Source of the DNA: a virus
Lineage: Duplodnaviria > Caudoviricetes
Reading direction: 5' to 3' (one strand)
Virus record (IMG/VR): IMGVR_UViG_3300033067_002020
Location: 1 to 64,000 of that record
DNA length: 64,000 nt
Of this stretch, positions 11,984-63,936 are shown piece by piece. The notes beneath the pieces are model-generated. The model was not told the origin of the DNA and made no database searches. It was given only the letters and a program-made list of their open reading frames with translations. The first letter of the stretch is position 1. Each line of letters starts with the position of its first letter. Position numbers and translations under genes: made by a program.

Positions 11984-12203
11984 AGGAAAACTTTACTCTC
12001 TGGTGATTCATCAAGTCGCACAACGGTTCGATGAAGTCAACGCTCATTATGTTACTGAAAACGATGATGAACTTGAAGAAGGGGAATGTGTCATTTACAT
12101 TAGATCGCATAGAGGAGGCTGTCCGTCAACGCTTTGGTGCTATGTGTTGACAAAATTTGGTATTCGTGAAATTCGTAAAGAATGTCTAAAAAAGGAAATC
12201 TAA
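11967..12203 (+). CDS. SH3/KOW-like family member
   Basis: RKGKLY ... GECVIYI ... VLTKFGIREI. Confidence 0.8.
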   Translation: MQTFRKGKLYSLVIHQVAQRFDEVNAHYVTENDDELEEGECVIYIRSHRGGCPSTLWCYVLTKFGIREIRKECLKKEI

Positions 12204-12205
12204 CA

Positions 12206-21238: not shown

Positions 21239-21269
21239 TTGTGAATAACTTGCGTCTTTAGGTTATGAT
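21239..21269 (+). promoter_or_regulatory. Promoter TTGTGA-N19-TATGAT (leaderless)
   Basis: ATG 21277 lies 7 nt after. Confidence 0.75.
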
Positions 21270-21276
21270 TAGATTC

Positions 21277-22451: not shown

Positions 22452-23759
22452 ATGAACGTATTTCAAATTCTTGAACTGATTGAAACCACTCAAGGCACAA
22501 ATGCAAAAGGCGAGATTCTAAACAAACATCGTGACAATGAATTACTAAAGAGAGTTTTATTTTTGACGTCCGATCCTTATACCAATTTTTGGGTTGCAAA
22601 GGTTCCGAAGGTCAAAACATTACCAAATGAATCATCAAGTGATGAGATGATGGGATTGTTGCTGTGCGCACTTGAAAAAACTATGGCGCGTGTCGTTACT
22701 GGAAATGCCGCGAAGGACATTATTACTAACGTATTGACTGGGATGTCGCAACTTGAATATAAGTGGGCATCAAGAATCATCTCAAGAAAGATGAGATTGG
22801 GAGTCGGAGACTCTTCTATTGAGAAAGTTTGGCCAGGACTCGTTCCATCTTTCGAGCCGTCTCTTGCAAAAGAATGTGATTGGGTCATTGAAAATGACAA
22901 TCTAAAATTGTTGACGCAATTCAAGTATCCTGTCAGAGTCGAACCTAAATGGGATGGATTTCGTTGTGTTGCTGTGAAAACAAAAGGTGTTGTCACATTG
23001 TTTGCTCGAAGTGGTAGAGAGTTTGATAGAGCTCCTGCTATCAAAGCGTTTCTTGAAAAGAACATGTGTGACGAATGTGTTCTTGATGGCGAAATAATCG
23101 GTGCAGAATGGAATGACACTGCATCAATCATCGGTTCTAGAAAAAATCATAAAGATGATGCGACACTTGCCTATCACGTGTTTGATTGTCTTCCTTTTTC
23201 AGTGTGGAAGGATCAAACTGAAAGTCTAAGTTTCGCCGCTCGATCGAATTTGATCCAATCGATAATTCCTTGTAAAGTTGGTGATCCTGTGCAGAAAGCT
23301 GCAGGAATAATCGCAAACAACGAAGAGGAGATTCTTCAATATTACAGTGAAAATATTTCTGGGGGCCTTGAGGGGGTCATGATAAAGGATTTGGGAGCTC
23401 CATATTGTTTCAAACGTAGTGAAGCGATCCTAAAGCTAAAACCATTGACATCATGGGATTGTGTTGTTGTTGATGTCCTCCCAGCAAGGGAAGGAACAAA
23501 ATGGGATGGAATGTACACCATCCTAAGCGTTCAAGTCCCTGGGGGTGGAGTGACACGTGTCGGAACAGGTTTCTCAGATGAAGAAAGAGAATATCTTAAC
23601 GCACAACGATCTAACTTAATTGGCCGAGCGTGTGAAGTCGAAGGTCAACCACCTCTGACAGATGATGGTAAAATTCGATTTCCTCGATTCACACGTTGGC
23701 GAGAAGATTGGGACGTCTCGCCAGAAGTCAAGAGTTTGATCGAAGCAAACTCTAAATAA
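22452..23759 (+). CDS. ATP-dependent DNA ligase (T4 gp30-like)
   Basis: EPKWDGFR, LDGEI, YHVFD, EGVMIK, LKLKP, GTGFSD, RFPRF. Confidence 0.95.
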   Translation: MNVFQILELIETTQGTNAKGEILNKHRDNELLKRVLFLTSDPYTNFWVAKVPKVKTLPNESSSDEMMGLLLCALEKTMARVVTGNAAKDIITNVLTGMSQLEYKWASRIISRKMRLGVGDSSIEKVWPGLVPSFEPSLAKECDWVIENDNLKLLTQFKYPVRVEPKWDGFRCVAVKTKGVVTLFARSGREFDRAPAIKAFLEKNMCDECVLDGEIIGAEWNDTASIIGSRKNHKDDATLAYHVFDCLPFSVWKDQTESLSFAARSNLIQSIIPCKVGDPVQKAAGIIANNEEEILQYYSENISGGLEGVMIKDLGAPYCFKRSEAILKLKPLTSWDCVVVDVLPAREGTKWDGMYTILSVQVPGGGVTRVGTGFSDEEREYLNAQRSNLIGRACEVEGQPPLTDDGKIRFPRFTRWREDWDVSPEVKSLIEANSK

Positions 23760-50280: not shown

Positions 50281-51894
50281 TCATCTCTTCTTCACAAGTA
50301 ACTTATGCTCAGGAAAATATAGGTAATCAATTTGTGTCTTCATAAAGCAATTAATCGCATGAATTGGTTCTTCGACGATTGGCTCTCTGTCATTGAATGA
50401 CGTATTCAACAAAATAGGAACGCCTGTTCGTTGATACCATTTTGTCAAAAATGCGTGATACCATTCGTTGTCTTCTTTTCTGACAGTTTGTAGTCTGCCA
50501 GTTCCATCAAAGTGAACGACGGCAGGAACTTTTGATTTCACTTCATCTTTAAACGGTAAGACGAAGTTCATATACGGACTTTCTACGTCAGAATATACCT
50601 GAAACCATTCACGAACATGTTCATACAAAATTGACGGTGCAAATGGTCTAAACGATTGACGGTGTTTGACTTTCTGGTTGATCATGTCCTTCATTTGCGG
50701 ATTTCTAGGATCAGCAATGATTGATCTGTTACCCAGAGCCCTTCTCCCGGACTCCGCCCTCTCGTTGAACACAGAAATAATCGAACCATTTGACAGTAGT
50801 TCTATCACAAAATTGTCATCCGAATTTTCTACCACCGCTTGAGGGCAACTTTCCAGAGCATCTAACACTTGTTTTTTAGAATATGACTTCCCAAGATATG
50901 ATGATGCGTTTTTGTTCCAATCGACTCTTTGGTTACCCAAAACGTGATGCCAAGTGTGTTGGGCAGAACCTATTGTTAGGCCCGCATCATACGGGACGGG
51001 TGGAATATAAACATCGTACATGTTTGATAACATTCCCATGGCAACTGAATTTAAAGCAACACCACCAGAAATACAAATGTTGCCAATTCTAAGTTCCTGT
51101 ACAGCGTCTCCAACAATGCCCAAGATCAATTCTTGTGTCGCCATTTGCAACGCACCAGCCATGTCAAACTTAGCTTGCTCATCGTTTTGTGCGATGTCAC
51201 GCCATTTTCCAAGGAATGGATGCCGAGGTTCTCTTGGATCTTTAACAGACATACCTGTAATATGACCAGGAGCTCTTGCGACAGTTTTCGCTAAGTTATC
51301 TGTCATAAAAGACCTAAAATCTTTTAGATACTTTTCTGGGTTTTTTGCCAGCGCCGCAAGTGCCATTGTTGTTCCACACTGATTTCCGTATGGATATCCA
51401 GATTCATATCCAAAAACGCAGCGTGTCACTCTTGACCAAACACCACCAATATTGATCTGTGATAATGGAATGTATTTGACGGCTTTTAGTTTTGTATCAT
51501 CACCTTTCCAAACTGTGACGCCAGTAGTGAATCCTGTCTCGTCTTCAATGCCACCACCATCTATTGTGATGATAATCGCAGATTTGAAATTGCTGGAATA
51601 AAATGCATTTGACGCATGCGATTGATGATGTCCAACGACGTAAAGTGGTGCAATACCAGAGATTTTATCCCATGATTGTTTGTACTCTTTGATTCCGTTA
51701 TCAAGATGACATGTTGATAAACCAATGATATCACTTACATCACCATGATGGTCAAAGAACAATTTAATGCTATCATAAGGAGGTTCTTTTACACGAAGGT
51801 GTCTTTCTGCCTCTGTGTGCAGTTCAATTTTACCATCGTTTAAAACACAAAATGATGCATCGTGCCCACTCCAAAGACCTAAAATCTTTTTCAT
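50281..51894 (-). CDS. Carbamoyltransferase (NodU/CmcH family)
   Basis: GHDAS, ER..R.K, HH.SHA, GG.ALN, RALGNRSI, RPFAPS, DGTGRLQTV, LLNTSFN. Confidence 0.95.
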   Translation of the reverse strand: MKKILGLWSGHDASFCVLNDGKIELHTEAERHLRVKEPPYDSIKLFFDHHGDVSDIIGLSTCHLDNGIKEYKQSWDKISGIAPLYVVGHHQSHASNAFYSSNFKSAIIITIDGGGIEDETGFTTGVTVWKGDDTKLKAVKYIPLSQINIGGVWSRVTRCVFGYESGYPYGNQCGTTMALAALAKNPEKYLKDFRSFMTDNLAKTVARAPGHITGMSVKDPREPRHPFLGKWRDIAQNDEQAKFDMAGALQMATQELILGIVGDAVQELRIGNICISGGVALNSVAMGMLSNMYDVYIPPVPYDAGLTIGSAQHTWHHVLGNQRVDWNKNASSYLGKSYSKKQVLDALESCPQAVVENSDDNFVIELLSNGSIISVFNERAESGRRALGNRSIIADPRNPQMKDMINQKVKHRQSFRPFAPSILYEHVREWFQVYSDVESPYMNFVLPFKDEVKSKVPAVVHFDGTGRLQTVRKEDNEWYHAFLTKWYQRTGVPILLNTSFNDREPIVEEPIHAINCFMKTQIDYLYFPEHKLLVKKR

Positions 51895-52871: not shown

Positions 52872-53288
52872 TTATTTTCCTAAGAAACACAAACCAGTAA
52901 GAATGCAAGCCAATCCAATCACTTTTGCAGAAGTAATTGTTTCATTGAAAATGAAAATAGAAAGAATGAACGTAACCATCGGATACGCAGACGTCAATCC
53001 TACAACCTTTGACACACTTTCAGTTCTTAGTGAAAACGTAAATGCTAACGTGGCCATCGCACCACACAAGGCTCCAATTAGAGCATAACAATTACCTTTG
53101 AAATTTGAATCAAACGAATGATTTGAAATTTTCAACATGTACAAGTAAATTGGAATTGTTATTCCGCTGCCGAGAGCCGCAATCAATGATACTTGTACTG
53201 GATAGATTCGTAATTGGGCTGCTTTATTAAAGATCCCCCAAAGACCCCAACACAAAATCGCAATTGCGATTAAAATGTTACTATTCAC
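52872..53288 (-). CDS. EamA/DMT-superfamily small transporter
   Basis: WG.W..F.K, S.V..L...YP......IF.E.IT..K.IG; several TM helices. Confidence 0.85.
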   Translation of the reverse strand: MNSNILIAIAILCWGLWGIFNKAAQLRIYPVQVSLIAALGSGITIPIYLYMLKISNHSFDSNFKGNCYALIGALCGAMATLAFTFSLRTESVSKVVGLTSAYPMVTFILSIFIFNETITSAKVIGLACILTGLCFLGK

Positions 53289-53886: not shown

Positions 53887-54210
53887 TCAAGAAGTGCAAA
53901 GAAATTGTTTCGCCTCTTCAACAAACAATTCCATATCTTCCAGTGACATAATCAAAGGAATTTCAACCGTATCAACTCTAAGCGTGTAATAAGATGTCTT
54001 TGTAGCCTCGTCTTGTTTTAAGACGATTTCTAATGCTCTTGAAGACCTAAGACAATAAACAACTTTTGCCGTCATTACCATATCTCTGGTAAAACGTAAA
54101 GTTAACACGCCATTGTCATCGAGTGATACGACACTTACATCATCTATTACTTGTTCTTGACTTTTAATAAAGTCGCCAACATTCACTGTTCTAACAAAAA
54201 TTTGTTTCAT
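53887..54210 (-). CDS. Hypothetical protein, 107 aa
   Basis: ATGA overlap with the methylase stop. Confidence 0.7.
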   Translation of the reverse strand: MKQIFVRTVNVGDFIKSQEQVIDDVSVVSLDDNGVLTLRFTRDMVMTAKVVYCLRSSRALEIVLKQDEATKTSYYTLRVDTVEIPLIMSLEDMELFVEEAKQFLCTS

Positions 54211-54812
54211 TGTGACTCCTTGAGTTTAGCTAACGATTCTCTAACGTCAAGACCATCTAATTCATTTCCAGTGCAAGTCCAACCTTCTGTGTGTCGTCTC
54301 GCGAACAATTCAAGTTTCTTTGCATCAGGAAACATTAAATTGAATGAATTATGCAAGTTTTGTGGTTTCTTACTGTGCATCTCGTTTAAAGCAAGCTCAA
54401 AATCAGGTGGCAAATCTTCATCAACAATGAGTGATCTTTGCGATTTATTTTGAAGATTTGCATATGGTTTACCGCATGTTCCAATCAACGCAATTTCATG
54501 AGAACCTCTAAACATTCGACCCATGCCGAATTCAATTTTTCCTGATTTTGTGGTTTTACCCCAAACGTATGTTGTTGTTTGTCGAAATCCCCACGATGTC
54601 ATTGTCCTAAGTCCATCAGATAACATCGATGAAGGAACCCATAATGCTAAAACTCCCCAATCACCAACGATAGATTGCACGTCAATATTGACAATGTCAT
54701 CCACGGATAAAACACCTTTATATTGAGATTCTGCTCCTCTTTTGACAGAACTCATTGTCAATTTATCATCAAATTTCCACGGCGGATCAGCGATTATTAC
54801 GTTAAATTTCAT
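54207..54812 (-). CDS. MT-A70-family N6-adenine methyltransferase
   Basis: IIADPPW, LALW, WGF, VWGK, GMG, HS.KP, LELFARR..GW...GNE. Confidence 0.92.
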   Translation of the reverse strand: MKFNVIIADPPWKFDDKLTMSSVKRGAESQYKGVLSVDDIVNIDVQSIVGDWGVLALWVPSSMLSDGLRTMTSWGFRQTTTYVWGKTTKSGKIEFGMGRMFRGSHEIALIGTCGKPYANLQNKSQRSLIVDEDLPPDFELALNEMHSKKPQNLHNSFNLMFPDAKKLELFARRHTEGWTCTGNELDGLDVRESLAKLKESQ

Positions 54813-55481
54813 TCAACATCTCCTAATTTCACCGCTTAAACGTACTAAAGAATACTCAATTTGACAAAAACTAATGTCAATTTGTTTGTTTAAAACATGA
54901 TACGTAAAAATTGTCTCTGGTCTGAATTGTGCAACGTTTTTACATAAATCGTCAAATTGATCATAAAGTTCAAAGTAAGATTTCATCACAGAAACATCAC
55001 CAAAAGCAAAATAATCATGTAATGTTCCGTTTGGCGTTTTAACGTTTCCTGGTAAAAACAACACTTTTTCTCTACTTGACAAGATAACATCTTCATGAAA
55101 TAACATGTCAGGTCTGACTGACACAATTACATCATATTTAATTTCACTTTGTTGTGATAACTCAAAACTTTTTTTAGCAGAGTACCACTTACTTTTTACG
55201 TTATGTGGTGGGGTTCTTGCGTATAAAAAACAATCATGATTTTCCAAGTCAAATTGAATTTGTGGTTCAATCATTAATGTTTTGATTTTACATAACGCAT
55301 TTAATGATGCATCGTCTATTGGCGACAAACCGCCAACGTCTTCTTTTCTTGTGGTACCTTTGACGTCCCAAGTATGCATAAAAACATCACAGTCATACTT
55401 GTCAAGTAAGTGTTGACGAATAGACTGTGATGTTTTTTCAAACGTTCTTACGTGTCCAGAAAAGCAAACGGCAACTTTCAT
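54813..55481 (-). CDS. Putative glycosyltransferase (K.A.C.SG..R type)
   Basis: VAVCFSGHVR, DVFMHTW, YDVI...RPD, D.FAFG; glycan-cluster context. Confidence 0.6.
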   Translation of the reverse strand: MKVAVCFSGHVRTFEKTSQSIRQHLLDKYDCDVFMHTWDVKGTTRKEDVGGLSPIDDASLNALCKIKTLMIEPQIQFDLENHDCFLYARTPPHNVKSKWYSAKKSFELSQQSEIKYDVIVSVRPDMLFHEDVILSSREKVLFLPGNVKTPNGTLHDYFAFGDVSVMKSYFELYDQFDDLCKNVAQFRPETIFTYHVLNKQIDISFCQIEYSLVRLSGEIRRC

Positions 55482-55765
55482 AGCAATCTTTTAAATTCTG
55501 TTACAATTTCCAAATCAATTTGACACAAAACACACACATAATCTTTAATTTCAAATCTAGATTCTATTACGTGGTCGCAATAACAACATACTGAATTACA
55601 AGCTTTTGTTTGTAACCATAAATCTCTTAATTCAGTATGTTCATTAAGATCTAGCCAAGGACTCAATGCCCAATAAACAGGAAATTTTTTAACTTCACCT
55701 GTTTGTAAAACAAATTTAAGATATGACCCTTCTATGTATGAACTTACAACTTTCATTTTCTTCAC
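55478..55765 (-). CDS. Hypothetical protein with C..C motifs
   Basis: In-operon ORF, ATGA overlap. Confidence 0.6.
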   Translation of the reverse strand: MKKMKVVSSYIEGSYLKFVLQTGEVKKFPVYWALSPWLDLNEHTELRDLWLQTKACNSVCCYCDHVIESRFEIKDYVCVLCQIDLEIVTEFKRLL

Positions 55766-55792: not shown

Positions 55793-56986
55793 TCACTGAA
55801 CCAATCCCCATGTGGAAATGGCTTCATCATACTCTTTACCATGTTGGCGATCAATAGCTTGTCTCATGGCTCGAGCACCATTGACTGTGCCTCCCGGATG
55901 GCCATGGATCGCTCCCCCACAATTTAGAAGCAGTTCATTACCTAACTTTCCTCTAATATATTCTACAAGGCCTGGGTGCATTCCACAACTAAGCGCTGGC
56001 ATTGTACCATGAGATTGTAAGATCTCGACAGTTTTCTTCAATTCACTTTCATCGTCTGATGAATACCCGCCTAACATTCCATTGTGAATGAAATCGGCAC
56101 CCATCATTCCAGCTAATTTACAAACAACGCTCCAATCAATGTGAAAAGCATGTTTCTTTGAAGTGAAAATCTTGTCACCACTCTTTTGAAAGTGTAAAAA
56201 CAAAGGCAAATCAAGCTTACGGATGCTATTGTAAACACCCAAACCAGACCAGAAATTTACATGAACACCATTAACACCAGCTTCATGAACTTGCTTTACT
56301 CTATCAAGAACGTTATGTGGATCTGCGTTAATACAAACACAATACACAACATTTTGTGTTGAAAGATATTGTGCTAGTTTTGGCAGTCTTTTTTCAAGAG
56401 TACAACATGATGGATTTGCCATAATCTCATCTTCTTTTATGAAATTGACGCCACCGTCGACCAAAGCTTTGACAAGATCTAACAAAATGTCTTCATTCAT
56501 ACAAACTTTTGGTTTGACAATTCCACCAAGAAGAGGCTTGTCATAAACACCAGTGTACTTTCTAATTCCTTGAATCCCAAATTTTGGTCCAAGAAAAGTG
56601 TTCTTAACACTATCTGGAAATTGCACATCTAAAACATGACATTTCACAATACTATCAATGTCAAGCTGACCACCCATGATGTGGCACAAAAATTGTGACA
56701 TACCATCAGACAAAAAATCAATGTTTGACAAAGGAAATGCAATTTTTACAGTTCCAGATTTACGTTGAAGTTTTTTGCTACCACGTTGTTCTAACACAAT
56801 GCAAGAATGCTTGGCGAATAGTTCATCAGACTCCCAAGCATTTCTAACGTTAGGATTTCCAACGCTTTGACCTATTGCTAAATTCCATGCAGCGTTTTCA
56901 AGACTTTTTGTTGACGACAATTTGTACGTCACAACAAAATAATCAGTTGTGTCAAAATCAGGTTGAAATACTTCAAATTGTGTCAT
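55793..56986 (-). CDS. RuBisCO-like protein (form IV RLP)
   Basis: PLLGGIVKPK, GG.NFIKEDE, ADFIH, LS.GMHP, GGAIHGHPGG...GA.AMRQA; several carboxylase residues are substituted. Confidence 0.92.
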   Translation of the reverse strand: MTQFEVFQPDFDTTDYFVVTYKLSSTKSLENAAWNLAIGQSVGNPNVRNAWESDELFAKHSCIVLEQRGSKKLQRKSGTVKIAFPLSNIDFLSDGMSQFLCHIMGGQLDIDSIVKCHVLDVQFPDSVKNTFLGPKFGIQGIRKYTGVYDKPLLGGIVKPKVCMNEDILLDLVKALVDGGVNFIKEDEIMANPSCCTLEKRLPKLAQYLSTQNVVYCVCINADPHNVLDRVKQVHEAGVNGVHVNFWSGLGVYNSIRKLDLPLFLHFQKSGDKIFTSKKHAFHIDWSVVCKLAGMMGADFIHNGMLGGYSSDDESELKKTVEILQSHGTMPALSCGMHPGLVEYIRGKLGNELLLNCGGAIHGHPGGTVNGARAMRQAIDRQHGKEYDEAISTWGLVQ

Positions 56987-57296
56987 ACTTGTCTCCTGGA
57001 ACGCTTGGTGTTTTCACAACAACTAACTCACAATCTTCTAAAAAGATTGGGTCGCCAATCTCACTTGGTTCAACAACAAAAATATCGCCAGAATTTAATT
57101 CTTGACCTTGAAATAACATTTTTCCCTTTACAAGAAAATTTATTTCAGTGGCAATTCGATGTATATGAGGTGCCCAAAATTCACCTTTTTGATGAATCTT
57201 GTAACTCACTTCACATGCTTCTGTGACATGTGCAGAAGGTGAAAAGTTTCCAACGAACCATCCACCTTTCATCTGTTCAAATTTGTAAATCTTCAT
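56973..57296 (-). CDS. Cupin-fold protein
   Basis: GWF.GNF, H.H...TE......G......GDIFV, VVVK.PS.PGDK. Confidence 0.85.
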   Translation of the reverse strand: MKIYKFEQMKGGWFVGNFSPSAHVTEACEVSYKIHQKGEFWAPHIHRIATEINFLVKGKMLFQGQELNSGDIFVVEPSEIGDPIFLEDCELVVVKTPSVPGDKYDTI

Positions 57297-58018
57297 TTTA
57301 TTGTTGATCTCGAAAGATATTTTTGCAAATCTTCTGGCGTTCCAATTGGGTGATGTTGAAAAATTGGGTAAATTTCAACAAGACCACCACGAGAAATTGT
57401 TTCATTGTAGACAGGACAAACATAAAACTCATTGTTTGTACGAATGTTTTTTCTGATCATGTTTGATGCGTCAGAGACAAAATCAGAGCCTTTTCGCCAA
57501 TAGTAAAGACCAGTTGTTGCGCAATTACTGATGACTTCTTTTTCAGCAACACGAGACACTCTGTATTTTAAAGGATCGTTTACATCAATTTCAGCGTAAC
57601 TGTTCTTGACATCATTTGAATGATACGTCACAATAATGCCATCAGCTGTCGATGTAGAAACACAATTCATAAATTGTTGTGGAGTCCAATCCTCAATTTG
57701 ATCACAATTTGCAATCAACAAACTATCATCTTGAATGTAATCTTTTGCTAACAAACAAGTTTCAGCCGCACCACGTGTCAAATGACTTGTTGTAATGACT
57801 TTGCATCCCGGCTTCAGTGACGACAACAACAAAATTAGGCGATGATAATCTGGTGCATCTTCTCTAACAACAAACACGTACTTTCCAATATTACCAAGAT
57901 TATCAAGTACTCTGACAATCATTGGTAGACCGTTGACGTCAATTAGTGGCTTTGAATCTTTATATCCATTTTGAGAAAACCTTGTACCACCACCAGCCAT
58001 CGGAATCAATATATTCAT
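57293..58018 (-). CDS. Sugar-phosphate nucleotidyltransferase (GlmU/RmlA-like)
   Basis: ILIPMAG.G.RF...GY...KPLI.V.G..MI; T.GAA.T; NCDQ; EK; NEFY..P.YN; GTPEDL. Confidence 0.9.
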   Translation of the reverse strand: MNILIPMAGGGTRFSQNGYKDSKPLIDVNGLPMIVRVLDNLGNIGKYVFVVREDAPDYHRLILLLSSLKPGCKVITTSHLTRGAAETCLLAKDYIQDDSLLIANCDQIEDWTPQQFMNCVSTSTADGIIVTYHSNDVKNSYAEIDVNDPLKYRVSRVAEKEVISNCATTGLYYWRKGSDFVSDASNMIRKNIRTNNEFYVCPVYNETISRGGLVEIYPIFQHHPIGTPEDLQKYLSRSTIK

Positions 58019-58827
58019 GTGATGATTTTATTCTTTTGCATGGTCAATGTATTCCAACGATCAGCTTGATATAGCCAAAATTGTGCAAAAGGGTCATCTG
58101 CTGGTTTAACACTAGAACCTTTCATGTGAGTTAAAAATGGTTCATTTTCATAATGAAATTCTTGACCAGTTCCTAACCGCGTTGGCTTTGTAAAATTAAA
58201 ACAAAACCCATCAAGACCGTATGGTCGTAATTTCATAGGAAACTCATAGCCAACATCAAGATAAATTCTTGATCCCTTGGGCCGCCCGTATGATAACGCT
58301 TGTTCTTTTGTTACAATTTCGTGCGCGCCCTTATCAGGATGAGGCATAAATGAAATATTGTGTTTTTTCATCAAATTATGTCTAAACATTGCAACAATCA
58401 ATGCTGGGAAGTTAACATACTTTGGTAAATTACTGTCTTTAAAATAATCTGTGCCACAAATGACAGTCTTATCAGTTAGCTTTGAAACCATGATTTGGTC
58501 CCAATTTTTACGCAACATCATGACATCGCAATCCGCAATCAGACAATAATCAGCATCAACATCATCATATAACGATTGAAGAACAAGCGCATGGCCAACT
58601 GACCCAGGTTCTGTTTCAGTATCCACTGATTTGATTTTTAGTTCTGCATGTTGATTAACAAATTCAACATGTGAATATTCAAATTGTGGAAAATTGTTTA
58701 ATCCAAGTGAAAATGTTAAATCATATTCACCAGAACAAGTTTCCAACGCAGATTTCATATACTTTGCAACAAACTTGTCAGAATTTTGTCCACATGGAAT
58801 AATGACTTCAATTTTTTCTTTATTCAT
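58015..58827 (-). CDS. GT-A fold (GT2-like) glycosyltransferase (start 58827)
   Basis: VIIP, DY.LI.DCD (DxD); ATGA overlap. Confidence 0.75.
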   Translation of the reverse strand: MNKEKIEVIIPCGQNSDKFVAKYMKSALETCSGEYDLTFSLGLNNFPQFEYSHVEFVNQHAELKIKSVDTETEPGSVGHALVLQSLYDDVDADYCLIADCDVMMLRKNWDQIMVSKLTDKTVICGTDYFKDSNLPKYVNFPALIVAMFRHNLMKKHNISFMPHPDKGAHEIVTKEQALSYGRPKGSRIYLDVGYEFPMKLRPYGLDGFCFNFTKPTRLGTGQEFHYENEPFLTHMKGSSVKPADDPFAQFWLYQADRWNTLTMQKNKIIT

Positions 58828-59363
58828 TCGCAAATCCAATTAGTTTTCAACATGTACATACAAATTTCATCATGATATTCGTTATCACGAAATAATGATT
58901 GAACGTGTCTACCTTCTTCAAGAAATCCTAGTTTCTTATAGACTTTTTTTGCAATATCGTTATAATCTGCAGTTGTTAGACTTACTCGATGTAAACTTAG
59001 TCCTGGGTATGTTTTATCAAAACAATAATCAAGCATCAACTTCCACATCGTTATGGCATGTCCCTTACCACGATGTTGAGGATGTATGTCAGCACCTAAA
59101 ATGCAATTATTGTTATTCTTGTCAATGTTGTAAAACTTACAGAATCCAACATTTTCATCATTGACACAAAAAATGAGTCTTTTTTCAGTTTGTGAATTGT
59201 TTATTCTATTCCACCAATTCATATGACTTTTAAAATCAATTGGTGTTGGATCTGTTATATTGCGTAATGTTGTTTGATCATTATGCAATTCAACTAACCA
59301 CTGATGATCATCATCTGACACATATCTTAAACAAGCGTTATCGTATTTTCTTACACATGTCAT
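58824..59363 (-). CDS. GNAT N-acetyltransferase (PseH/RimJ-like)
   Basis: H..W, VG...FY.I, GADIHP..RGKG, Y.KLGF..EG. Confidence 0.88.
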   Translation of the reverse strand: MTCVRKYDNACLRYVSDDDHQWLVELHNDQTTLRNITDPTPIDFKSHMNWWNRINNSQTEKRLIFCVNDENVGFCKFYNIDKNNNNCILGADIHPQHRGKGHAITMWKLMLDYCFDKTYPGLSLHRVSLTTADYNDIAKKVYKKLGFLEEGRHVQSLFRDNEYHDEICMYMLKTNWICE

Positions 59364-60490
59364 CTACATAACTCAATAACTCTACGAGCAATGTGTTCAA
59401 TATCTTTTGATTTAAGCCACCAACCAACAGGTAAACACAATTGTTGTTTAGAAAATTGTCTCACTCCTGGTAAGTCTGCTTTGAATTTATTAAAACAGGT
59501 ATATGTGTCATTTGGAACGTGAACAACACCTGCTTTAATTCCTTCTGAATTAAGTTTTTGCAATAATTGATCACGTGTTATAGGTGAATTATCAGAAAGC
59601 GTAATTCCGTACACCCAATGACTTGACAATGCTTTTGGGTGTCTGATCAGTGGATTTACATTACGTAACATTGCATCATAGATTGTTGCATTTTGTCTAT
59701 GAGCGTCAATGATCCCATCAATTCGCCACAAGTTTGCAAGCCCAATTGCAGCTGAAACATTATTCATGTTATGTTTCCAACCTGCTTCAAGAATGTCAAC
59801 GTCCCACTGTTGACCTTTCCAGTTTCCAACTTCATCTTTTGATTTGTCTCTATCAAGACCAAACCATTTTAGCGCTTTTGCACGCTCAAAGGTTTCGTTA
59901 TCAGAACAAACAAGTGCGCCCCCATCGCCCGTCGTAAAATGCTTGATGGCTTGAAAGCTATAACAAGTGAAGTCTACAAATTCTGACACAGGTTTGCCCT
60001 CAAATAGGGCTCCAAAGGCATGTGCTGCATCGAGGATTAGTTTTATAGAATGCTTCTTGCAAATATTCTGGACGCTGATTAGGTCAGGTGGTGTACCGCC
60101 CCAAGCAACAACAACAACTGCTTTTGTTTTTGGTGTTATTTTTGCCTCAATCATCTCTGGTTCTGGCATTCCACTGTGAGGATTAATGTCAGTCCAGACA
60201 ATGTTCGCACCTAAGTTAACAATTGGCGTGTTCGTTGCAACACAAGTCATCGGCGTAGAAACAACATCATCACCAAATCCGACGCCAGAAAGTTGTAATG
60301 CCAACGTCAGTGCAGATGTACAACTATTTGTTAATAACAATTGTTTTGAACCAAGTTTTACTTGCAACGCCTGGGTCAATTCAGTGACTTGAACACCTTC
60401 ATTTATAAATCCTGAATTAAAAACATTTTCAATTTCTTTAAGGGCATGCAAGTTACTGACACCAACACGAAATAATGAATACTCTTTCAT
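59360..60490 (-). CDS. DegT/DnrJ/EryC1/StrS sugar aminotransferase (PseC-like)
   Basis: TNSCTSAL, T.VAT, DAAHA.G, SFQAIKHFTTGDGG, LCLP. Confidence 0.93.
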   Translation of the reverse strand: MKEYSLFRVGVSNLHALKEIENVFNSGFINEGVQVTELTQALQVKLGSKQLLLTNSCTSALTLALQLSGVGFGDDVVSTPMTCVATNTPIVNLGANIVWTDINPHSGMPEPEMIEAKITPKTKAVVVVAWGGTPPDLISVQNICKKHSIKLILDAAHAFGALFEGKPVSEFVDFTCYSFQAIKHFTTGDGGALVCSDNETFERAKALKWFGLDRDKSKDEVGNWKGQQWDVDILEAGWKHNMNNVSAAIGLANLWRIDGIIDAHRQNATIYDAMLRNVNPLIRHPKALSSHWVYGITLSDNSPITRDQLLQKLNSEGIKAGVVHVPNDTYTCFNKFKADLPGVRQFSKQQLCLPVGWWLKSKDIEHIARRVIELCR

Positions 60491-61536
60491 GTTGTTGAAA
60501 TTTCCTCAATTTTTTGACCTGAAAATTGATCAAGTTTCATGTCAAACACGTTCAATTTGATTAGGTGTTTTTTAAGTTCTTCTTTTGTTAGAACTTTCAT
60601 CGAACTGTCATAAGATTGAACTTCACGAGAACAAGTTGTTGAAAACACTGGTTCGATTACGTAATTTTTAGCTTTTGAACTCTTGTAATCACAAATTTTT
60701 CTTGTTCTTGTTGCTTCGGATGTGTTGATTAAATCTTCATGTAATTTTTCACCAGGGCGTGAGCCAACAATTCTAATTTTCTTTCCTGATATTTCAGAAA
60801 ACAATTCAGCTAAATCACCAATTTTCATTGCTGGTATGACTGGAATCCACGTTTCCCCAGATGCACCATTTACGATGGTTTTGCATATTAGATCAACGCT
60901 ATCATCAAGCGTCATTACAAATCTTGTCATTTCAGGATTCGTAACTGTCAAGCAATCATTTTTTTCTGATTGATACTTGAATAGTGGAATTATACTTCCT
61001 CGCGACTCAAGCACATTTCCATATCGAGTACACACAAATGCAACATTATCTTTACGCTCAGTCGATGCTTGACTAGTTATCAACCGTTCAGATATTGCTT
61101 TGCACATTCCATATGTGTTTATTGGAGATGATGCCTTGTCTGTGCTAACGTATAAAACTGTTTCAAGTCTCTTTGAATGAACGTCATTAATTGCATTTAT
61201 GACATTTTGCGTGCCGTGAACATTTGTTTGAATACTTTCCCAAGGCGAAAGTTCACATGTATCAACTTGTTTAAGGGCTGCAGCAAGAATGATAATGTTT
61301 GGTTTGACTTGTCGTATTACGTCTTTGACTCTATTGTAGTCTCTAACATCTCCAACGTAAAATTTGGGTTGTTCAATAGAATATCCTTTGATTGACAGAT
61401 CGTTTTTAAGAGTCCACTGTTTTAATTCATCACGTGAATATACACTAATTGAATTGTTATCTGACAATCTATCAATTAGCTTTTTACCAAGTGAACCTGT
61501 GCCACCAAATATCAAAATTGACTTGCCTTTGATCAT
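60487..61536 (-). CDS. UDP-GlcNAc 4,6-dehydratase (PseB/FlaA1/CapD-like)
   Basis: GGTGSLG, SRDELKQ, GDVRD, AAALKQV, STDKA..P.N.YG..K, RYGNV..SRGS, MTRF, RPGEKLHE. Confidence 0.95.
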   Translation of the reverse strand: MIKGKSILIFGGTGSLGKKLIDRLSDNNSISVYSRDELKQWTLKNDLSIKGYSIEQPKFYVGDVRDYNRVKDVIRQVKPNIIILAAALKQVDTCELSPWESIQTNVHGTQNVINAINDVHSKRLETVLYVSTDKASSPINTYGMCKAISERLITSQASTERKDNVAFVCTRYGNVLESRGSIIPLFKYQSEKNDCLTVTNPEMTRFVMTLDDSVDLICKTIVNGASGETWIPVIPAMKIGDLAELFSEISGKKIRIVGSRPGEKLHEDLINTSEATRTRKICDYKSSKAKNYVIEPVFSTTCSREVQSYDSSMKVLTKEELKKHLIKLNVFDMKLDQFSGQKIEEISTT

Positions 61537-62378
61537 TTTGTTCCTTGAAAAATTTGAATCAAATCGTCTTTGACGTCAACTATGAAATCACTGCGAGTTT
61601 CTCTATAACCGATAGAATTTCCATTCTGGACATAACTTCCCATCAAAACAGATTCTGGGGTGTTACCTAACTTTGAATGGAAAATTCCACCGTCTAAAAT
61701 CGCAGATTGTTTATGATATTCATGATATAATCTTTGAAAAGTCATCTCATTAAATGACTCTAATTTTGCAAGTTTTTCAAAAATTTCATACATCACTTCA
61801 AGACGACTTACAGTTGGTATTTTAGCTAAAAAATTGGTTTTGTATATTTTTGCCTTTTCATCAGCAATATCAAACCAAACTCGCTCTCTTGTCAAAAAAT
61901 TATTCTGTACACACCATGCATATTGTCTTGAATCGACACAAGGTCGTTGTTTATCGTATAGATGACGCTGATTTACGAAAAATTCTTCAACTCTAACAAA
62001 TCCAACTTTTCCATTTTCATCTAGAAAATGTTCAACATCTTCTAGACGTTTAAAAGCATCATCTGTATGAATCAAATCTGATTCAATCACATAAAGATAT
62101 TTGTATTGTCTTCCTAAAATTGTTTGGTAGTTACGTAACACCCATCGAATCGCACTCCAAAATCCAACGTTGTGTTTGCTTTTTACCACATTTAAAAAAT
62201 TACTTGTTAGTATCGTATCAGACTCTGCGATCGTTGATGCATTGTCAAATACGATCATGTGATGTAAAAAATCTTGATCTTCAAATGATTTCAGATTTTG
62301 CACAACTTGTTCAAGAACATTAAATCTTGTTTTTTCTAACGAACAAGTAACTAACAGATACAGAATATCGTTTGTCAT
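61533..62378 (-). CDS. Putative GT-A glycosyltransferase
   Basis: VFDNAS, N.G...A, YLYVIESD; ATGA overlaps. Confidence 0.65.
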   Translation of the reverse strand: MTNDILYLLVTCSLEKTRFNVLEQVVQNLKSFEDQDFLHHMIVFDNASTIAESDTILTSNFLNVVKSKHNVGFWSAIRWVLRNYQTILGRQYKYLYVIESDLIHTDDAFKRLEDVEHFLDENGKVGFVRVEEFFVNQRHLYDKQRPCVDSRQYAWCVQNNFLTRERVWFDIADEKAKIYKTNFLAKIPTVSRLEVMYEIFEKLAKLESFNEMTFQRLYHEYHKQSAILDGGIFHSKLGNTPESVLMGSYVQNGNSIGYRETRSDFIVDVKDDLIQIFQGTK

Positions 62379-63481
62379 GCTAACCTGTCAAGAAAATCTG
62401 ACCAATTTTTCCAATATTGTTCATTGAAAATACGACGTTTCATCTCTAACATGCCATGACGTAAACTTTCAGCAAACTCATGATCATTTTCAATTTTAAG
62501 AACTGCAGTGACAGCATCTTGAGGAGTGTTCACTAACACACAATTGAATCCATCAATCAAGTATTTTTGTGAACATGATTGTTGTACGTATGATTCAGTT
62601 GTAATCATAGGCGTTCCAGTATTCAATGCATGGAAAAAACACCCGCCGCCCCAATCTGTTTGTTTAAAATGAACTATTGCTTTCAACGTTGATATGAATG
62701 CTAGACAGTCTTTTGGAGATAAAGTTGGAAAGTTTCCTGTCGGCCCATTTTTATGATACCTGATATCAGCACCCATCGAACGAATGTTTCCACCGTAATT
62801 TGTGACCGACATTGAATGTTCATTTAACAAATGATTCATTTCAACGAAAAGTCTGTAATCCCTTGGTTGTCTGATTTCAAAGTTATGATTAAACGAAGCA
62901 AAACCGTGTCTACGTTGTTGTGGCGTTACGCCTAACAAATTCAATTCAATTTCATGACACATAATTGTGCATGAATTACTTGATGTTTTAGCGTTTTCAT
63001 AGCTTGCAGGAATAATCTTTGCAATGTTTGGTGCCATGACACCACCTGGAGAGATATCCCATGCATTAAGTGTTGATGAAACCCATTTAGCTGAAGGAAA
63101 GTGCTCTCTGGTTATCTGAACATACTTTGAAAGGTATCTTTCACCACCTCGAAGGGTGTGATAAATGTCGATATCATATTTTTGTTGTGTCAAATCAACT
63201 ATATCACATATCAAATCAGTGTTAGACTCGACTGTTTGTTGAGTCAAAAAATAATCTTCACCAAACAAATCATCTTGTGTTCTATCAAATCCATGAATGT
63301 CAAAGTTTTTTTTGCCATCTGAATTTCGACACAACAACATTGGCCACGTAGCAATTTTCGACCATTCAAGACCTAAAGTGCCGTGTTTTGGTAAAAACAC
63401 GTTATGACCCAACAATCTATAGTGATAGATGATTGAAAGTTGTCCAGACCTATCATCTGTTGGGAAAATAAACACGTTCAT
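62375..63481 (-). CDS. Putative GT-B glycosyltransferase
   Basis: C-terminal K..D.GG....AL..GTP.I...Y...L.DG.N; ATGA overlaps. Confidence 0.65.
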   Translation of the reverse strand: MNVFIFPTDDRSGQLSIIYHYRLLGHNVFLPKHGTLGLEWSKIATWPMLLCRNSDGKKNFDIHGFDRTQDDLFGEDYFLTQQTVESNTDLICDIVDLTQQKYDIDIYHTLRGGERYLSKYVQITREHFPSAKWVSSTLNAWDISPGGVMAPNIAKIIPASYENAKTSSNSCTIMCHEIELNLLGVTPQQRRHGFASFNHNFEIRQPRDYRLFVEMNHLLNEHSMSVTNYGGNIRSMGADIRYHKNGPTGNFPTLSPKDCLAFISTLKAIVHFKQTDWGGGCFFHALNTGTPMITTESYVQQSCSQKYLIDGFNCVLVNTPQDAVTAVLKIENDHEFAESLRHGMLEMKRRIFNEQYWKNWSDFLDRLA

Positions 63482-63936
63482 CGTGAAGACTCAAGATAAT
63501 CGCTACAATAGCCAGAACACCTGTTTTCAAATAACTTATACGAATCTTTTTCAAGTTTGACAATGACTGATTTTTGTGTGACAGGTTTTCCTGGATAAGT
63601 CCAGATGTATCCTTTTGATGTTAGCGTATGATCGTCATTTTCATGCCAAAAACAATGAATGTTATTTTCAAGCAAAAATTGCAATGCTTGATGATTTTTT
63701 GCATGAACCCAAATTTTGTCATTTTTCAAAAAATCAACATCAATTTTATATGTCGGTGTGTCATGTCCGAGATACAAACCATTGTAAGGCTCATATTGCT
63801 GTGAATCGTCAATCCAGACATCAACTTCAATATCAAATCCAGCTTGCAAAGCTTCTAACAAATAGTCAGGATGATTTTCCCACTTTGTCTTTCCACACAT
63901 ATTTCCACGATGAGCAATCAAATGAAATTCAGACAT
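63478..63936 (-). CDS. PLC/GDPD-like phosphodiesterase
   Basis: LIAHRG, EN.P.Y...AL..GFDIEVDVW, LGHD, HAKN, WHE.D..TLTS.G.IW.YPG. Confidence 0.85.
   Translation of the reverse strand: MSEFHLIAHRGNMCGKTKWENHPDYLLEALQAGFDIEVDVWIDDSQQYEPYNGLYLGHDTPTYKIDVDFLKNDKIWVHAKNHQALQFLLENNIHCFWHENDDHTLTSKGYIWTYPGKPVTQKSVIVKLEKDSYKLFENRCSGYCSDYLESSR

What the first reader, a model, noticed from the sequence alone, without database searches (positions are those of the whole stretch)
55793..58018. Phage-encoded RuBisCO-like protein coupled to a cupin and a nucleotidyltransferase: candidate new activated-sugar pathway
Seen: a complete 397-aa RuBisCO-fold gene directly overlapped by a cupin, which follows a nucleotidyltransferase, inside a glycan operon that also has a phosphodiesterase (63478-63936) and several glycosyltransferases. 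By-eye alignment to plant RbcL keeps K175/K177 (IVKPK), the K201-x-D203-E204 metal site (KEDE) and H327. It appears to lose E60 (AIGQS), N123, H294/R295 (LHFQK) and loop-6 K334 (GGYSS). Established: characterised form IV RLPs are enolases/tautomerases (MtnW), isomerases or (trans/de)carboxylases of sugar phosphates, not CO2 fixers. Inference: the RLP, cupin and nucleotidyltransferase make an unusual ketose-derived or branched nucleotide sugar for the neighbouring glycosyltransferases, a biosynthetic rather than catabolic RLP role, here in a virus.
Basis: partly seen in the sequence, partly recalled or inferred. Interest (0 to 1): 0.88.

Follow-up and report, generated by a model that had tools for sequence, protein, structure and literature searches.

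The report
Phage RuBisCO-like sugar-activation gene cassette
A large T4-like phage carries a RuBisCO relative that cannot fix CO2; across phages, SAR11, Legionella and tiny archaea this gene almost always sits beside, and is sometimes fused to, a sugar-activating enzyme, so it probably helps build an unusual activated sugar for surface glycans, a role never shown for this enzyme family.

Summary
Window 55793-56986 (-) encodes an intact 397-aa RuBisCO-fold protein. A 107-aa metal cupin overlaps its start by 14 nt, and a 241-aa sugar-phosphate nucleotidyltransferase (NTP) precedes the cupin.

The RLP keeps the enolisation core (K175, K177, K201, D203, E204, H327, the P1 glycines). It has lost E60, N123, H294, R295, H298 and K334, so it is not a carboxylase. 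It also lacks the MtnW catalytic lysine.

In a tree it falls in a well-supported clade apart from MtnW, OiaX-like and form III sequences. This is the phage/Beckwithbacteria "form IV-like" clade of Jaffe et al., whose function is unknown.

In 114 related loci (80 viral, 34 cellular):
- NTP lies within 1 kb of the RLP in 104.
- A miniature GDPD-like protein (window 63478-63936) occurs in 83.
- The cupin occurs in 76, fused to NTP in 21.
- A methyltransferase occurs in 56.
- NTP-RLP fusions exist in both orders.
- The neighbouring PseB/C/H-like genes are not conserved with the cassette.

In Legionella the partners are LicD, RLP and NTP.

Best reading: a cassette that makes a nucleotide-activated sugar or polyol-phosphate donor. 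The substrate is unknown. This scan reached the same reading before on other DNA. Phage RLPs themselves are already published.

The parts
55793..56986 (-). RuBisCO-like protein (RLP), 397 aa, 'form IV-like' clade. Enolisation core kept, carboxylation residues lost.
   Evidence: PF00016 4.2e-30. AF2 pLDDT 93, TM 0.86 to form III RuBisCO. Residue map. Clade placement.
56973..57296 (-). Small metal-binding monocupin, 107 aa, with an H44-x-H46-x4-E51-x6-G58 motif. Overlaps the RLP start by 14 nt.
   Evidence: Cupin_7 1.3e-4, below cut-off. Family invariants. AF2 pLDDT 95. Foldseek finds archaeal cupin phosphomannose isomerase 7zvm, KdgF and Pac13, TM 0.6-0.7. Present in 76 of 114 related loci, fused to the C-terminus of NTP in 21.
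57293..58018 (-). Sugar-phosphate nucleotidyltransferase (NTP), 241 aa, with a P-x-x-G-x-G-x-R loop.
   Evidence: NTP_transf_3 9e-10 and NTP_transferase 6e-8. Family profile hits uncharacterised NDP-sugar pyrophosphorylase 4evw at 1e-34, then RmlA and GDP-mannose pyrophosphorylases at about 1e-9. Within 1 kb of the RLP in 104 of 114 loci. Fused to the RLP in P0016, P0074, P0095 and P0124.
63478..63936 (-). Miniature GDPD-like phosphodiesterase (p152), 152 aa. Fourth conserved cassette member. In this phage it lies 6.5 kb upstream of the RLP, separated by the Pse-like genes.
   Evidence: No Pfam hit. Family profile against PDB GDPDs: 7e0v 1.4e-4 and 3i10 8e-4, over the N-terminal HR...EN...ExD...GHD motifs. 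Invariants H9, R10, E20, N21, E37, D39, H58, H78, K80. Present in 83 of 114 loci.
54813..55481 (-). DUF7796 protein, 222 aa. Accessory partner, candidate glycan-modifying or transfer enzyme.
   Evidence: PF25072 4e-6, just below cut-off. Homologue found in 27 of 80 viral loci. Atlas structural neighbours are viral, one named 'capsular polysaccharide biosynthesis', with fusions to sulfotransferase, PRK-family kinase and GT92. Not LicD-like.
55478..55765 (-). 95-aa ORF between the RLP and DUF7796. Unknown function, not conserved.
   Evidence: No Pfam hit. No homologue in 80 viral loci.
58015..58839 (-). 274-aa protein coupled to NTP by a 4-nt overlap. Weak GT2-like lead.
   Evidence: No Pfam or NCBIfam hit. 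Atlas feature neighbours carry Glycos_transf_2 in only 11-20% of members. Not conserved with the cassette.
58824..61536 (-). Neighbouring but separable cassette: PseB-like 4,6-dehydratase (60487-61536), PseC-like aminotransferase (59360-60490), PseH-like GNAT (58824-59363).
   Evidence: Pfam and NCBIfam hits, all below the equivalog cut-offs. Co-occur with the RLP in only 6, 10 and 1 of 80 viral loci.

Best explanation
The RLP is one enzyme of a conserved, horizontally mobile cassette. Its parts are a nucleotidyltransferase and the RLP, usually with a small metal cupin and a miniature GDPD-like phosphodiesterase, and often a methyltransferase. The cassette builds an unusual nucleotide-activated sugar or polyol-phosphate donor for decorating a glycan.

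Shown here:
- The RLP keeps the carbamate-Lys/Mg2+ enolisation machinery and the P1 phosphate cradle, and lacks the residues needed for CO2 addition.
- The gene linkage and the fusions.
- The surface-glycan gene context.

Inferred:
- The RLP abstracts a proton next to a carbonyl of a phosphorylated keto-sugar. This could be either the free sugar phosphate or the NDP-linked sugar. It then re-protonates the enediolate to give an isomer or epimer.
- The cupin, whose nearest folds are cupin-type phosphomannose isomerase, KdgF and Pac13, performs a second enolisation-type isomerisation or dehydration.
- NTP joins the sugar phosphate to a nucleotide.
- The unit is then passed to a glycan by a glycosyltransferase, or as a phospho-unit by LicD (Legionella) or possibly by the mini-GDPD or DUF7796 proteins.

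In this T4-like phage the cassette sits in a roughly 20-30 kb glycan island. It most likely remodels the infected cell's surface glycan or glycosylates phage components.
For: Active site: K158, K160, K184, D186, E187, H301, S333, G335 and G357/358 are retained and invariant across the family.

Linkage in 114 loci:
- NTP in 107, within 1 kb in 104, on the same strand in 96.
- p152 in 83.
- Cupin in 76.
- Methyltransferase within 3 kb in 56.

Fusions:
- NTP-RLP: P0016, P0074, P0095.
- RLP-NTP: P0124.
- NTP-cupin in 21 loci.
- HAD-NTP.

Depth: the RLP-NTP adjacency persists down to 35% identity, in Legionella, Turneriella, Francisellaceae, Azospirillum, Elusimicrobia and DPANN.

Glycan context:
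- LicD next to RLP-NTP in four Legionellaceae.
- GT2, a Wzx-like flippase and a GT1/methyltransferase in L126.
- GT9 and a KdsB/NeuA-like cytidylyltransferase in a complete Pelagibacter genome.
- WavE/GT2/methyltransferase next to the fusion protein.

Sporadic occurrence in cells fits variable surface-glycan islands and horizontal transfer: 1 of 121 Legionellaceae and 2 of 151 Pelagibacteraceae species genomes.

From my own knowledge, not tested here: ketose-phosphate cytidylyltransferases (CDP-xylulose, CDP-6-fructose) and LicD/FKTN-type transfer of phospho-alcohols from CDP donors are known.
Against: - No substrate, product or acceptor is identified, and no biochemistry exists for any clade member.
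- The order of steps (RLP before or after NTP) is open.
- The cupin is missing in about a third of loci and the mini-GDPD in about a quarter, so only RLP plus NTP is universal.
- In this phage the mini-GDPD lies 6.5 kb from the RLP.
- Gene neighbourhood is indirect evidence, and glycan islands are gene-dense, so some co-occurrence (SDRs, GTs) is expected by chance.
- No cultured phage in INPHARED has a homologue, so the host and glycan target are unknown.
Confidence: 0.62

Rival explanations
1. Methionine-salvage-type auxiliary gene set. The RLP would be an MtnW-like diketo-methylthiopentyl-phosphate enolase working with a HAD phosphatase (MtnX-like) and a cupin dioxygenase (MtnD/ARD-like), or an R. 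rubrum-type RLP plus cupin methylsulfurylase pair. Either would recycle methylthioadenosine during infection.
For: - The best solved structure by sequence is MtnW 2oej, at 3e-36.
- RLP plus cupin plus HAD recalls MtnW/MtnX/MtnD.
- A HAD-NTP fusion lies in this phage just beyond the window.
Against: - MtnW models score far below cut-off: 138 against 513.6 and 166 against 409.
- The catalytic Lys at the N123 position (Gk K98) is Gly/Gln here.
- True MtnW (P0246, 652 bits) sits across a 99-supported split in the tree.
- HAD occurs in only 8 of 114 loci.
- The cupin's nearest folds are PMI, KdgF and Pac13, not ARD.
- The universal partner is a nucleotidyltransferase, which has no role in methionine salvage.
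Confidence: 0.03
2. Phage DNA or nucleotide hypermodification. The cassette would make an NDP-sugar that is attached to phage DNA bases, as in T-even glucosylation or arabinosylation, rather than to a glycan.
For: - This is a T4-like phage: RNA ligases, DNA ligase and baseplate genes.
- DNA methyltransferases lie nearby: MT-A70 at 54207-54812, and N6_N4 and D12 methyltransferases in L009.
- A thymidylate-synthase-like gene lies near the cassette in L005.
Against: - The same cassette sits in cellular polysaccharide loci with a flippase, GT2, GT9 and LicD, and in Pelagibacter, Legionella and DPANN genomes that are not known to glycosylate DNA.
- No hydroxymethylase or DNA glycosyltransferase is consistently linked in the neighbour census.
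Confidence: 0.06
3. A genuine carboxylase or oxygenase, or an AMP/nucleoside-salvage RuBisCO of the form III type, that boosts host carbon metabolism.
For: - K175-P-K177 and the K201/D203/E204 metal site are as in true RuBisCO.
- The nearest folds are form III enzymes.
Against: - E60, N123, H294, R295, H298 and K334 are all replaced, and invariantly so.
- The form III model scores 171 bits against a 497 cut-off.
- No phosphoribulokinase, AMP phosphorylase or R15P isomerase is linked.
Confidence: 0.01
4. The RLP is a non-catalytic scaffold or regulator of the nucleotidyltransferase.
For: - Fusions to NTP exist in both orders.
- No activity is known for the clade.
Against: - All metal-binding and proton-abstracting residues and the phosphate cradle are invariant across more than 40 sequences at 57-83% identity to the window protein, and down to the 35%-identical homologues. 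That pattern is typical of a working active site.
Confidence: 0.03

Closest known systems
'Form IV-like' RuBisCO-related proteins of phages and Beckwithbacteria (Jaffe, Castelle, Dupont & Banfield; bioRxiv 10.1101/386292 = PMC6389311)
   Same: Same clade. It is borne by myovirus-type phages. It groups with Beckwithbacteria/Patescibacteria sequences (L099 53% and L095 58% identity; same starred 26-row set). It is highly divergent from other RLPs, with key residues only partly conserved.
   Different: That paper left the function 'unclear' and discussed carbon metabolism and gene transfer. Here the clade is tied to a nucleotidyltransferase/cupin/mini-GDPD cassette in glycan loci, and is extended to SAR11, Legionella, Azospirillum, Turneriella and DPANN.
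MtnW / YkrW, 2,3-diketo-5-methylthiopentyl-1-phosphate enolase (PDB 2oej, 2oem, 4nas)
   Same: RuBisCO fold, carbamylated Lys and Mg2+ site, an enolisation mechanism, 27-28% identity, and the best PDB sequence hit.
   Different: It lacks the catalytic Lys at the N123 position and keeps KPK as in true RuBisCO. It is in a different tree clade, scores below the NCBIfam cut-offs and has no methionine-salvage neighbours.
Form III RuBisCO (T. kodakarensis 3a12/3kdo; P. horikoshii 2cwx)
   Same: Best structural match, TM 0.86-0.87. K175, K177, K201, D203, E204, H327 and S379 are shared.
   Different: E60, N123, H294, R295, H298 and K334 are replaced. The rubisco_III model scores 171 bits against a 497 cut-off.
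OiaX / OiaC RLPs of D-apiose catabolism
   Same: RLPs acting on branched keto-sugar-acid phosphates. About 30% identity to rhizobial OiaX.
   Different: The OiaX model scores 138 bits against a 700 cut-off. OiaX-like sequences fall in a separate clade. Those are catabolic operons, whereas this context is biosynthetic.
CDP-alcohol / CDP-ketose donor pathways with LicD-type transfer (TarI/TarJ-LicD, ISPD-FKTN/FKRP, AbpA CDP-xylulose, C. jejuni CDP-6-fructose). Recalled from my own knowledge.
   Same: A small nucleotidyltransferase activates a sugar or polyol phosphate. In Legionella a LicD-family gene lies next to RLP-NTP.
   Different: None of those pathways uses a RuBisCO-fold enzyme, a cupin or a mini-GDPD. 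The nucleotide used by this NTP family is unknown. Its nearest solved relative, 4evw, is uncharacterised.

Membership tests
RuBisCO large-subunit superfamily (PF00016) | Catalytic TIM-barrel domain scoring over the Pfam cut-off, plus an N-terminal alpha/beta domain | tested here: met
   PF00016 scores 105.5 bits against a 30.1 cut-off. The N-domain scores 20.3 against 20.7, borderline. The AF2 model has TM 0.86-0.87 to form III RuBisCO over the full length.
RuBisCO large-subunit superfamily (PF00016) | Carbamylatable Lys201 with Asp203/Glu204 metal ligands, and Lys175 | tested here: met
   K184, D186, E187 and K158 are aligned and invariant in the family. Carbamylation itself cannot be tested with these tools.
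Bona fide RuBisCO (forms I-III) | E60, N123, H294, K334 (CO2 addition and intermediate stabilisation) and R295/H298 (P2 phosphate) | tested here: not met
   These positions are G39, G106, Q267, Y308, K268 and D271. NCBIfam form III scores 171 against 497, the large-subunit model 153 against 438, and form II 95 against 489.
MtnW (DK-MTP-1-P enolase) | Score over the equivalog cut-off | tested here: not met
   TIGR03332 scores 138 against 513.6 and NF007095 scores 166 against 409. True MtnW P0246 scores 652 and 641.
MtnW (DK-MTP-1-P enolase) | Catalytic Lys at the position of N123 (K98 in G. kaustophilus) | tested here: not met
   The window has G106/Q107 where MtnW has GK.
MtnW (DK-MTP-1-P enolase) | Groups with MtnW in a tree | tested here: not met
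   The 48-row clade holding the window is split from the side that holds MtnW with SH-like support 99. This is a FastTree tree with midpoint rooting only.
OiaX (3-oxo-isoapionate-4-phosphate decarboxylase) | Score over the equivalog cut-off and clade membership | tested here: not met
   NF042437 scores 138 against 700. The OiaX-like clade (P0215, 524 bits) is on the other side of the tree.
'Form IV-like' phage/Beckwithbacteria RLP clade (Jaffe et al.) | Phage-borne RLPs that cluster with Beckwithbacteria sequences, apart from the other RLP clades | tested here: met
   234 IMG/VR contigs carry relatives. Beckwithbacteria L099 and Patescibacteria L095 fall inside the window's 26-row starred set.
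Sugar-phosphate nucleotidyltransferase (PF00483 / PF12804) | Domain over cut-off and the N-terminal G-x-G-x-R pyrophosphorylase loop | tested here: met
   PF12804 scores 39.3 against 27 and PF00483 scores 33 against 21.2. P6, G9, G11, R13 and K23 are invariant. The family profile hits 4evw at 1e-34 and RmlA at 1e-9. Substrate and nucleotide cannot be tested here.
Cupin superfamily | Double-stranded beta-helix fold with the G-x5-H-x-H-x3,4-E-x6-G metal motif | tested here: met
   AF2 pLDDT 95; Foldseek probability 1.0 to monocupins, TM 0.6-0.72. H44, H46, E51 and G58 are invariant. Pfam Cupin_7 scores only 22.2 against 27.
Glycerophosphodiester phosphodiesterase (GDPD, PF03009) | Full TIM-barrel domain of about 230-250 aa over the Pfam cut-off | tested here: not met
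   No Pfam hit. The protein is only 152 aa. DPANN loci carry roughly 250-aa relatives.
Glycerophosphodiester phosphodiesterase (GDPD, PF03009) | Catalytic HR...EN...ExD...HD motifs | tested here: inconclusive
   The family profile aligns these motifs to 7e0v and 3i10 (E 1.4e-4 and 8e-4) over about 50 residues only. H9, R10, E20, N21, E37, D39 and H58 are invariant. The fold was not modelled.

The most novel reading that the evidence does not exclude
The RLP works directly on a nucleotide-linked keto-sugar. That would make it the first RuBisCO-superfamily enzyme with an NDP-sugar substrate. In this reading the clade-specific, invariant N44-P45-x2-R48-x2-W51-E52 loop, which replaces the T65/W66 P1-phosphate loop, holds the nucleotide diphosphate. 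The product is then transferred as a phospho-sugar unit by LicD or by the miniature GDPD-like protein acting as a transferase. Together these would define a new donor class for phage-driven surface-glycan remodelling in SAR11-type hosts and others.
Probability: 0.2. Interest if true: 0.85.

Novelty: new variant of a known kind. Interest (0 to 1): 0.68.

Why it matters
Every characterised RuBisCO-like protein works in catabolism or salvage: methionine salvage, the MTA-isoprenoid shunt and apiose degradation.

A clade wired to a nucleotidyltransferase inside glycan clusters would give the RuBisCO fold a biosynthetic job. It would also point to an undescribed activated sugar or polyol-phosphate.

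The clade is large. In a 1.84-billion-protein library, 176 representatives of 50%-identity clusters match the RLP family profile at E <= 1e-30 (that count includes more distant RuBisCO-family proteins; about 20 score above 300 bits). 234 IMG/VR contigs carry relatives. It is common in uncultured aquatic T4-like and jumbo phages, and occurs in SAR11.

It also answers a question left open in 2019, namely what phage RLPs are for. They are not photosynthesis or CO2-fixation auxiliary genes, which matters for annotating viral 'rbcL' hits in metagenomes.

Two cultivable bacteria with minimal loci make it directly testable: Legionella nautarum ATCC 49506 and Azospirillum oleiclasticum RWY-5-1-1.

Tried and rejected
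- Complex prediction of RLP plus NTP gave no verdict (score 0.00). It is not used as evidence either way.
- tblastn of the RLP against 50,697 GenBank phage records found nothing.
- Literature searches for RLP with nucleotidyltransferase/cupin, LicD or 'form IV-like' after 2019 found no paper assigning a function.
- DUF7796 was tested for a LicD relationship by hhalign (probability 0.1%) and against the PDB (no meaningful hit). The idea was rejected.
- HAD phosphatase as a core member was rejected: 8 of 114 loci.
- PseB/C/H as part of the cassette was rejected.
- My first residue map, from the pairwise phmmer alignment (H265 = H294, Q107 = N123), was replaced by the multiple-alignment map.
- The cupin fold search did not single out ARD, RmlC or a methylsulfurylase.
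- An SDR epimerase/dehydratase is common nearby (47 of 114 loci) but loosely linked (median gap 1.9 kb). I treat it as glycan-island background.
Full report
**What is in the window**

On the minus strand there is a run of tightly packed, mostly overlapping genes:
- 63478-63936: 152 aa
- 62375-63481: 368 aa
- 61533-62378: 281 aa
- 60487-61536: PseB-like dehydratase
- 59360-60490: PseC-like aminotransferase
- 58824-59363: PseH-like GNAT
- 58015-58839: 274 aa
- 57293-58018: nucleotidyltransferase (NTP), 241 aa
- 56973-57296: cupin, 107 aa
- 55793-56986: RLP, 397 aa
- 55478-55765: 95 aa
- 54813-55481: DUF7796
- 54207-54812: MT-A70 methyltransferase

The RLP start codon lies inside the last codons of the cupin gene.

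The record is an IMG/VR virus contig of 75,310 bp, which CheckV rates as about 20% complete. It carries T4-type genes: baseplate wedge subunits, two RNA ligases and a DNA ligase.

The same gene order was assembled independently from four samples, and GC content is flat across the region. A host-phage chimera at this point is therefore excluded.

**The RLP itself**

- It matches RuBisCO_large at 4e-30.
- It folds with pLDDT 93.
- It superposes on form III RuBisCO at TM 0.86-0.87 and on MtnW at 0.82-0.85, with 24-28% identity.
- It is far below every curated NCBIfam cut-off: form III 171/497, MtnW 166/409 and 138/514, OiaX 138/700, form II 95/489.

An L-INS-i alignment of 142 family representatives gives the residue map.
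- Retained: K175 (K158), K177 (K160), K201 (K184), D203 (D186), E204 (E187), H327 (H301), S379 (S333), G381 (G335), G403/404 (G357/358).
- Replaced: E60 to G39, T65/W66 to N44/P45, N123 to G106 (followed by Q107), H294 to Q267, R295 to K268, H298 to D271, K334 to Y308, G380 to C334.
- The T65/W66 replacement is followed by an inserted loop with invariant R48, W51 and E52.

All of these positions are invariant or nearly so in 40 homologues that are 57-83% identical to the window protein. The motifs persist in the 35-45% identical cellular homologues.

The enzyme can therefore bind Mg2+ through a carbamate and enolise a phosphorylated carbonyl compound. It cannot carboxylate. It also lacks the MtnW general-base lysine.

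**Which clade**

A profile search of 1.84 billion cluster representatives found 1,726 relatives, 176 of them at E <= 1e-30. About 20 representatives scored above 300 bits, followed by a gap.

In a FastTree tree of 142 rows:
- The window protein sits in a 48-row clade with SH-like support 99.
- That clade also holds the viral sequences and those from Pelagibacter, Patescibacteria/Beckwithbacteria, DPANN archaea, Legionella, Francisellaceae, Azospirillum, Turneriella and Elusimicrobia.
- The other side of the split holds true MtnW (P0246, 652 bits), OiaX-like (P0215) and form III-like sequences (P0226, P0160).

This is the 'form IV-like' phage/Beckwithbacteria clade that Jaffe et al. reported with about 90 phage sequences and 'possible functionality unclear'. 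So an RLP in a phage is not new. Earlier GOS work had also seen unplaced marine RuBisCO homologues.

**The new information is the company it keeps**

I fetched 80 viral loci (55-64% identical RLPs; 234 IMG/VR contigs matched in all) and 34 cellular loci. I then searched their ORFs with the window's proteins and with family HMMs.

| Partner | Loci out of 114 | Notes |
|---|---|---|
| NTP homologue | 107 | within 1 kb in 104; same strand in 96 |
| 152-aa protein (p152) | 83 | |
| Cupin | 76 | |
| Methyltransferase (FkbM-, CmcI-, TylF- or class I-type) | 56 | within 3 kb |
| SDR epimerase/dehydratase | 47 | loosely placed |
| HAD | 8 | |

The usual order is NTP-cupin-RLP-p152.

Gene fusions link the parts:
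- NTP-cupin in 21 loci.
- NTP-RLP in P0016, P0074 and P0095.
- RLP-NTP in P0124.
- HAD-NTP in several loci, including this phage just beyond the window's right edge.

By contrast, homologues of the PseB, PseC and GNAT genes next door appear in only 6, 10 and 1 of the 80 viral loci. They are a separate pathway that happens to be inserted between the mini-GDPD and the NTP gene in this phage.

**The partners**

- **NTP.** It has the G-x-G-x-R loop. Its nearest solved relative is an uncharacterised NDP-sugar pyrophosphorylase, 4evw (1e-34), followed by RmlA and GDP-mannose pyrophosphorylases.
- **Cupin.** It has an H-x-H...E metal motif and a confident monocupin model. Its nearest folds are archaeal cupin-type phosphomannose isomerase, KdgF and the nucleoside dehydratase Pac13. 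All of these are sugar enolisation or dehydration enzymes. They are not acireductone dioxygenase or RmlC.
- **p152.** It aligns to the N-terminal catalytic half of glycerophosphodiester phosphodiesterases, with the HR, EN, ExD and HD motifs invariant. It is only about 60% of a GDPD barrel. DPANN loci have roughly 250-aa versions.
- **DUF7796.** It is a viral glycan-associated domain of unknown activity and is not detectably LicD-like.

**Cellular contexts say 'surface glycan'**

- In Legionella nautarum, L. drozanskii, L. maceachernii and a Tatlockia MAG the locus is minimal: a LicD-family gene, then RLP and NTP.
- In a complete Pelagibacter genome the cassette lies with a heptosyltransferase, a HAD-NTP fusion and a KdsB/NeuA-like cytidylyltransferase.
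- In Azospirillum oleiclasticum the order is p152-RLP-cupin-NTP.
- In a bacterial contig (L126) it lies among GT2, a Wzx-like flippase and a GT1/methyltransferase.
- The clade is rare within lineages: 1 of 121 Legionellaceae and 2 of 151 Pelagibacteraceae species genomes sampled. That is the pattern of strain-variable glycan islands and horizontal transfer.

**Most likely mechanism**

Shown: an intact enolisation active site, obligatory linkage to a nucleotidyltransferase, and a glycan context.

Inferred: the RLP isomerises or epimerises a phosphorylated keto-sugar through an enediolate. The cupin adds a second isomerisation or dehydration step. NTP makes the nucleotide-activated form. The unit is often O-methylated. 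It is then transferred by a glycosyltransferase, or as a phospho-unit by LicD and possibly by the mini-GDPD or DUF7796.

Whether the RLP acts before or after nucleotide attachment is open. Because NTP is the hub of all the fusions, and because the P1-phosphate loop is replaced by an invariant Arg/Trp-bearing insert, an NDP-linked substrate is a live possibility. I give it about 0.2.

**Rivals**

Methionine salvage, CO2 fixation, DNA hypermodification and a non-catalytic role are each contradicted by specific tests listed above.

**Relation to earlier scan notes**

This scan has met the same cassette repeatedly on other DNA. Earlier follow-up agents reached the same reading. I reproduced the key points independently here before reading those notes. 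New here:
- The multiple-alignment residue map.
- The labelled tree.
- The 114-locus neighbour census with distances.
- The LicD-only Legionella pattern.
- The RLP-NTP fusion in the reverse order.
- The sporadic-distribution counts.

**Limits**

- There is no biochemistry.
- The tree is FastTree with midpoint rooting only.
- The viral loci are the 80 best of 234 and are not independent of one another.
- The complex prediction gave no verdict.

Noticed in passing
P0160 and P0177 (proteins, not in the window): Form III-like RuBisCO domains fused behind a ribose-1,5-bisphosphate isomerase (e2b2) domain, 726-742 aa. This joins two consecutive steps of the archaeal AMP/nucleoside pathway in one polypeptide (NCBIfam hits).
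   Followed up: partly
window 52872-53288 (-); compare L003 6255-6471: The EamA-family transporter gene of this phage is absent from the otherwise co-linear JGI variant contig L003. Only 35- and 61-aa ORFs lie at that site there, so this is a presence/absence polymorphism between near-identical phages.
   Followed up: no
window 50281-51894 (-): A NodU/CmcH-type carbamoyltransferase (Carbam_trans_C 9e-63) lies in the phage glycan island, which suggests O-carbamoylated sugars. Homologues occur in 5 of 80 related viral loci.
   Followed up: no
beyond the window's right edge (G000 > 64000; L001 783-2177): A 464-aa HAD-phosphatase/NTP-transferase fusion and a 294-aa unknown protein lie directly upstream of the mini-GDPD gene. 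The phage therefore has two paralogous nucleotidyltransferases of the cassette's family. The same pair occurs in L022/L023 and in Pelagibacter L091.
   Followed up: partly
window 54813-55481 (-): In other viruses, DUF7796-fold domains are fused to a sulfotransferase, a PRK/uridine-kinase-family kinase or GT92 (Atlas structure neighbours). A PRK-family kinase linked to an RLP cassette would be worth checking.
   Followed up: no
window 12182-13195 (+), 21265-22449 (+), 22452-23759 (+): T4-like RNA ligase (Rnl2-type PHROG 548), an Rnl1-type 'tail fibre attachment catalyst' and an ATP-dependent DNA ligase. These support a T4-like lineage for this uncultured phage.
   Followed up: no
whole RLP family: No homologue of this RLP was found by tblastn in 50,697 GenBank phage records, although 234 IMG/VR contigs carry one. 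The cassette appears confined to uncultured phages.
   Followed up: partly
L125 3133-4035 (Azospirillum oleiclasticum): A PAPS-reductase-family gene follows p152-RLP-cupin-NTP in the Azospirillum locus. Its relation to the cassette is unknown.
   Followed up: no
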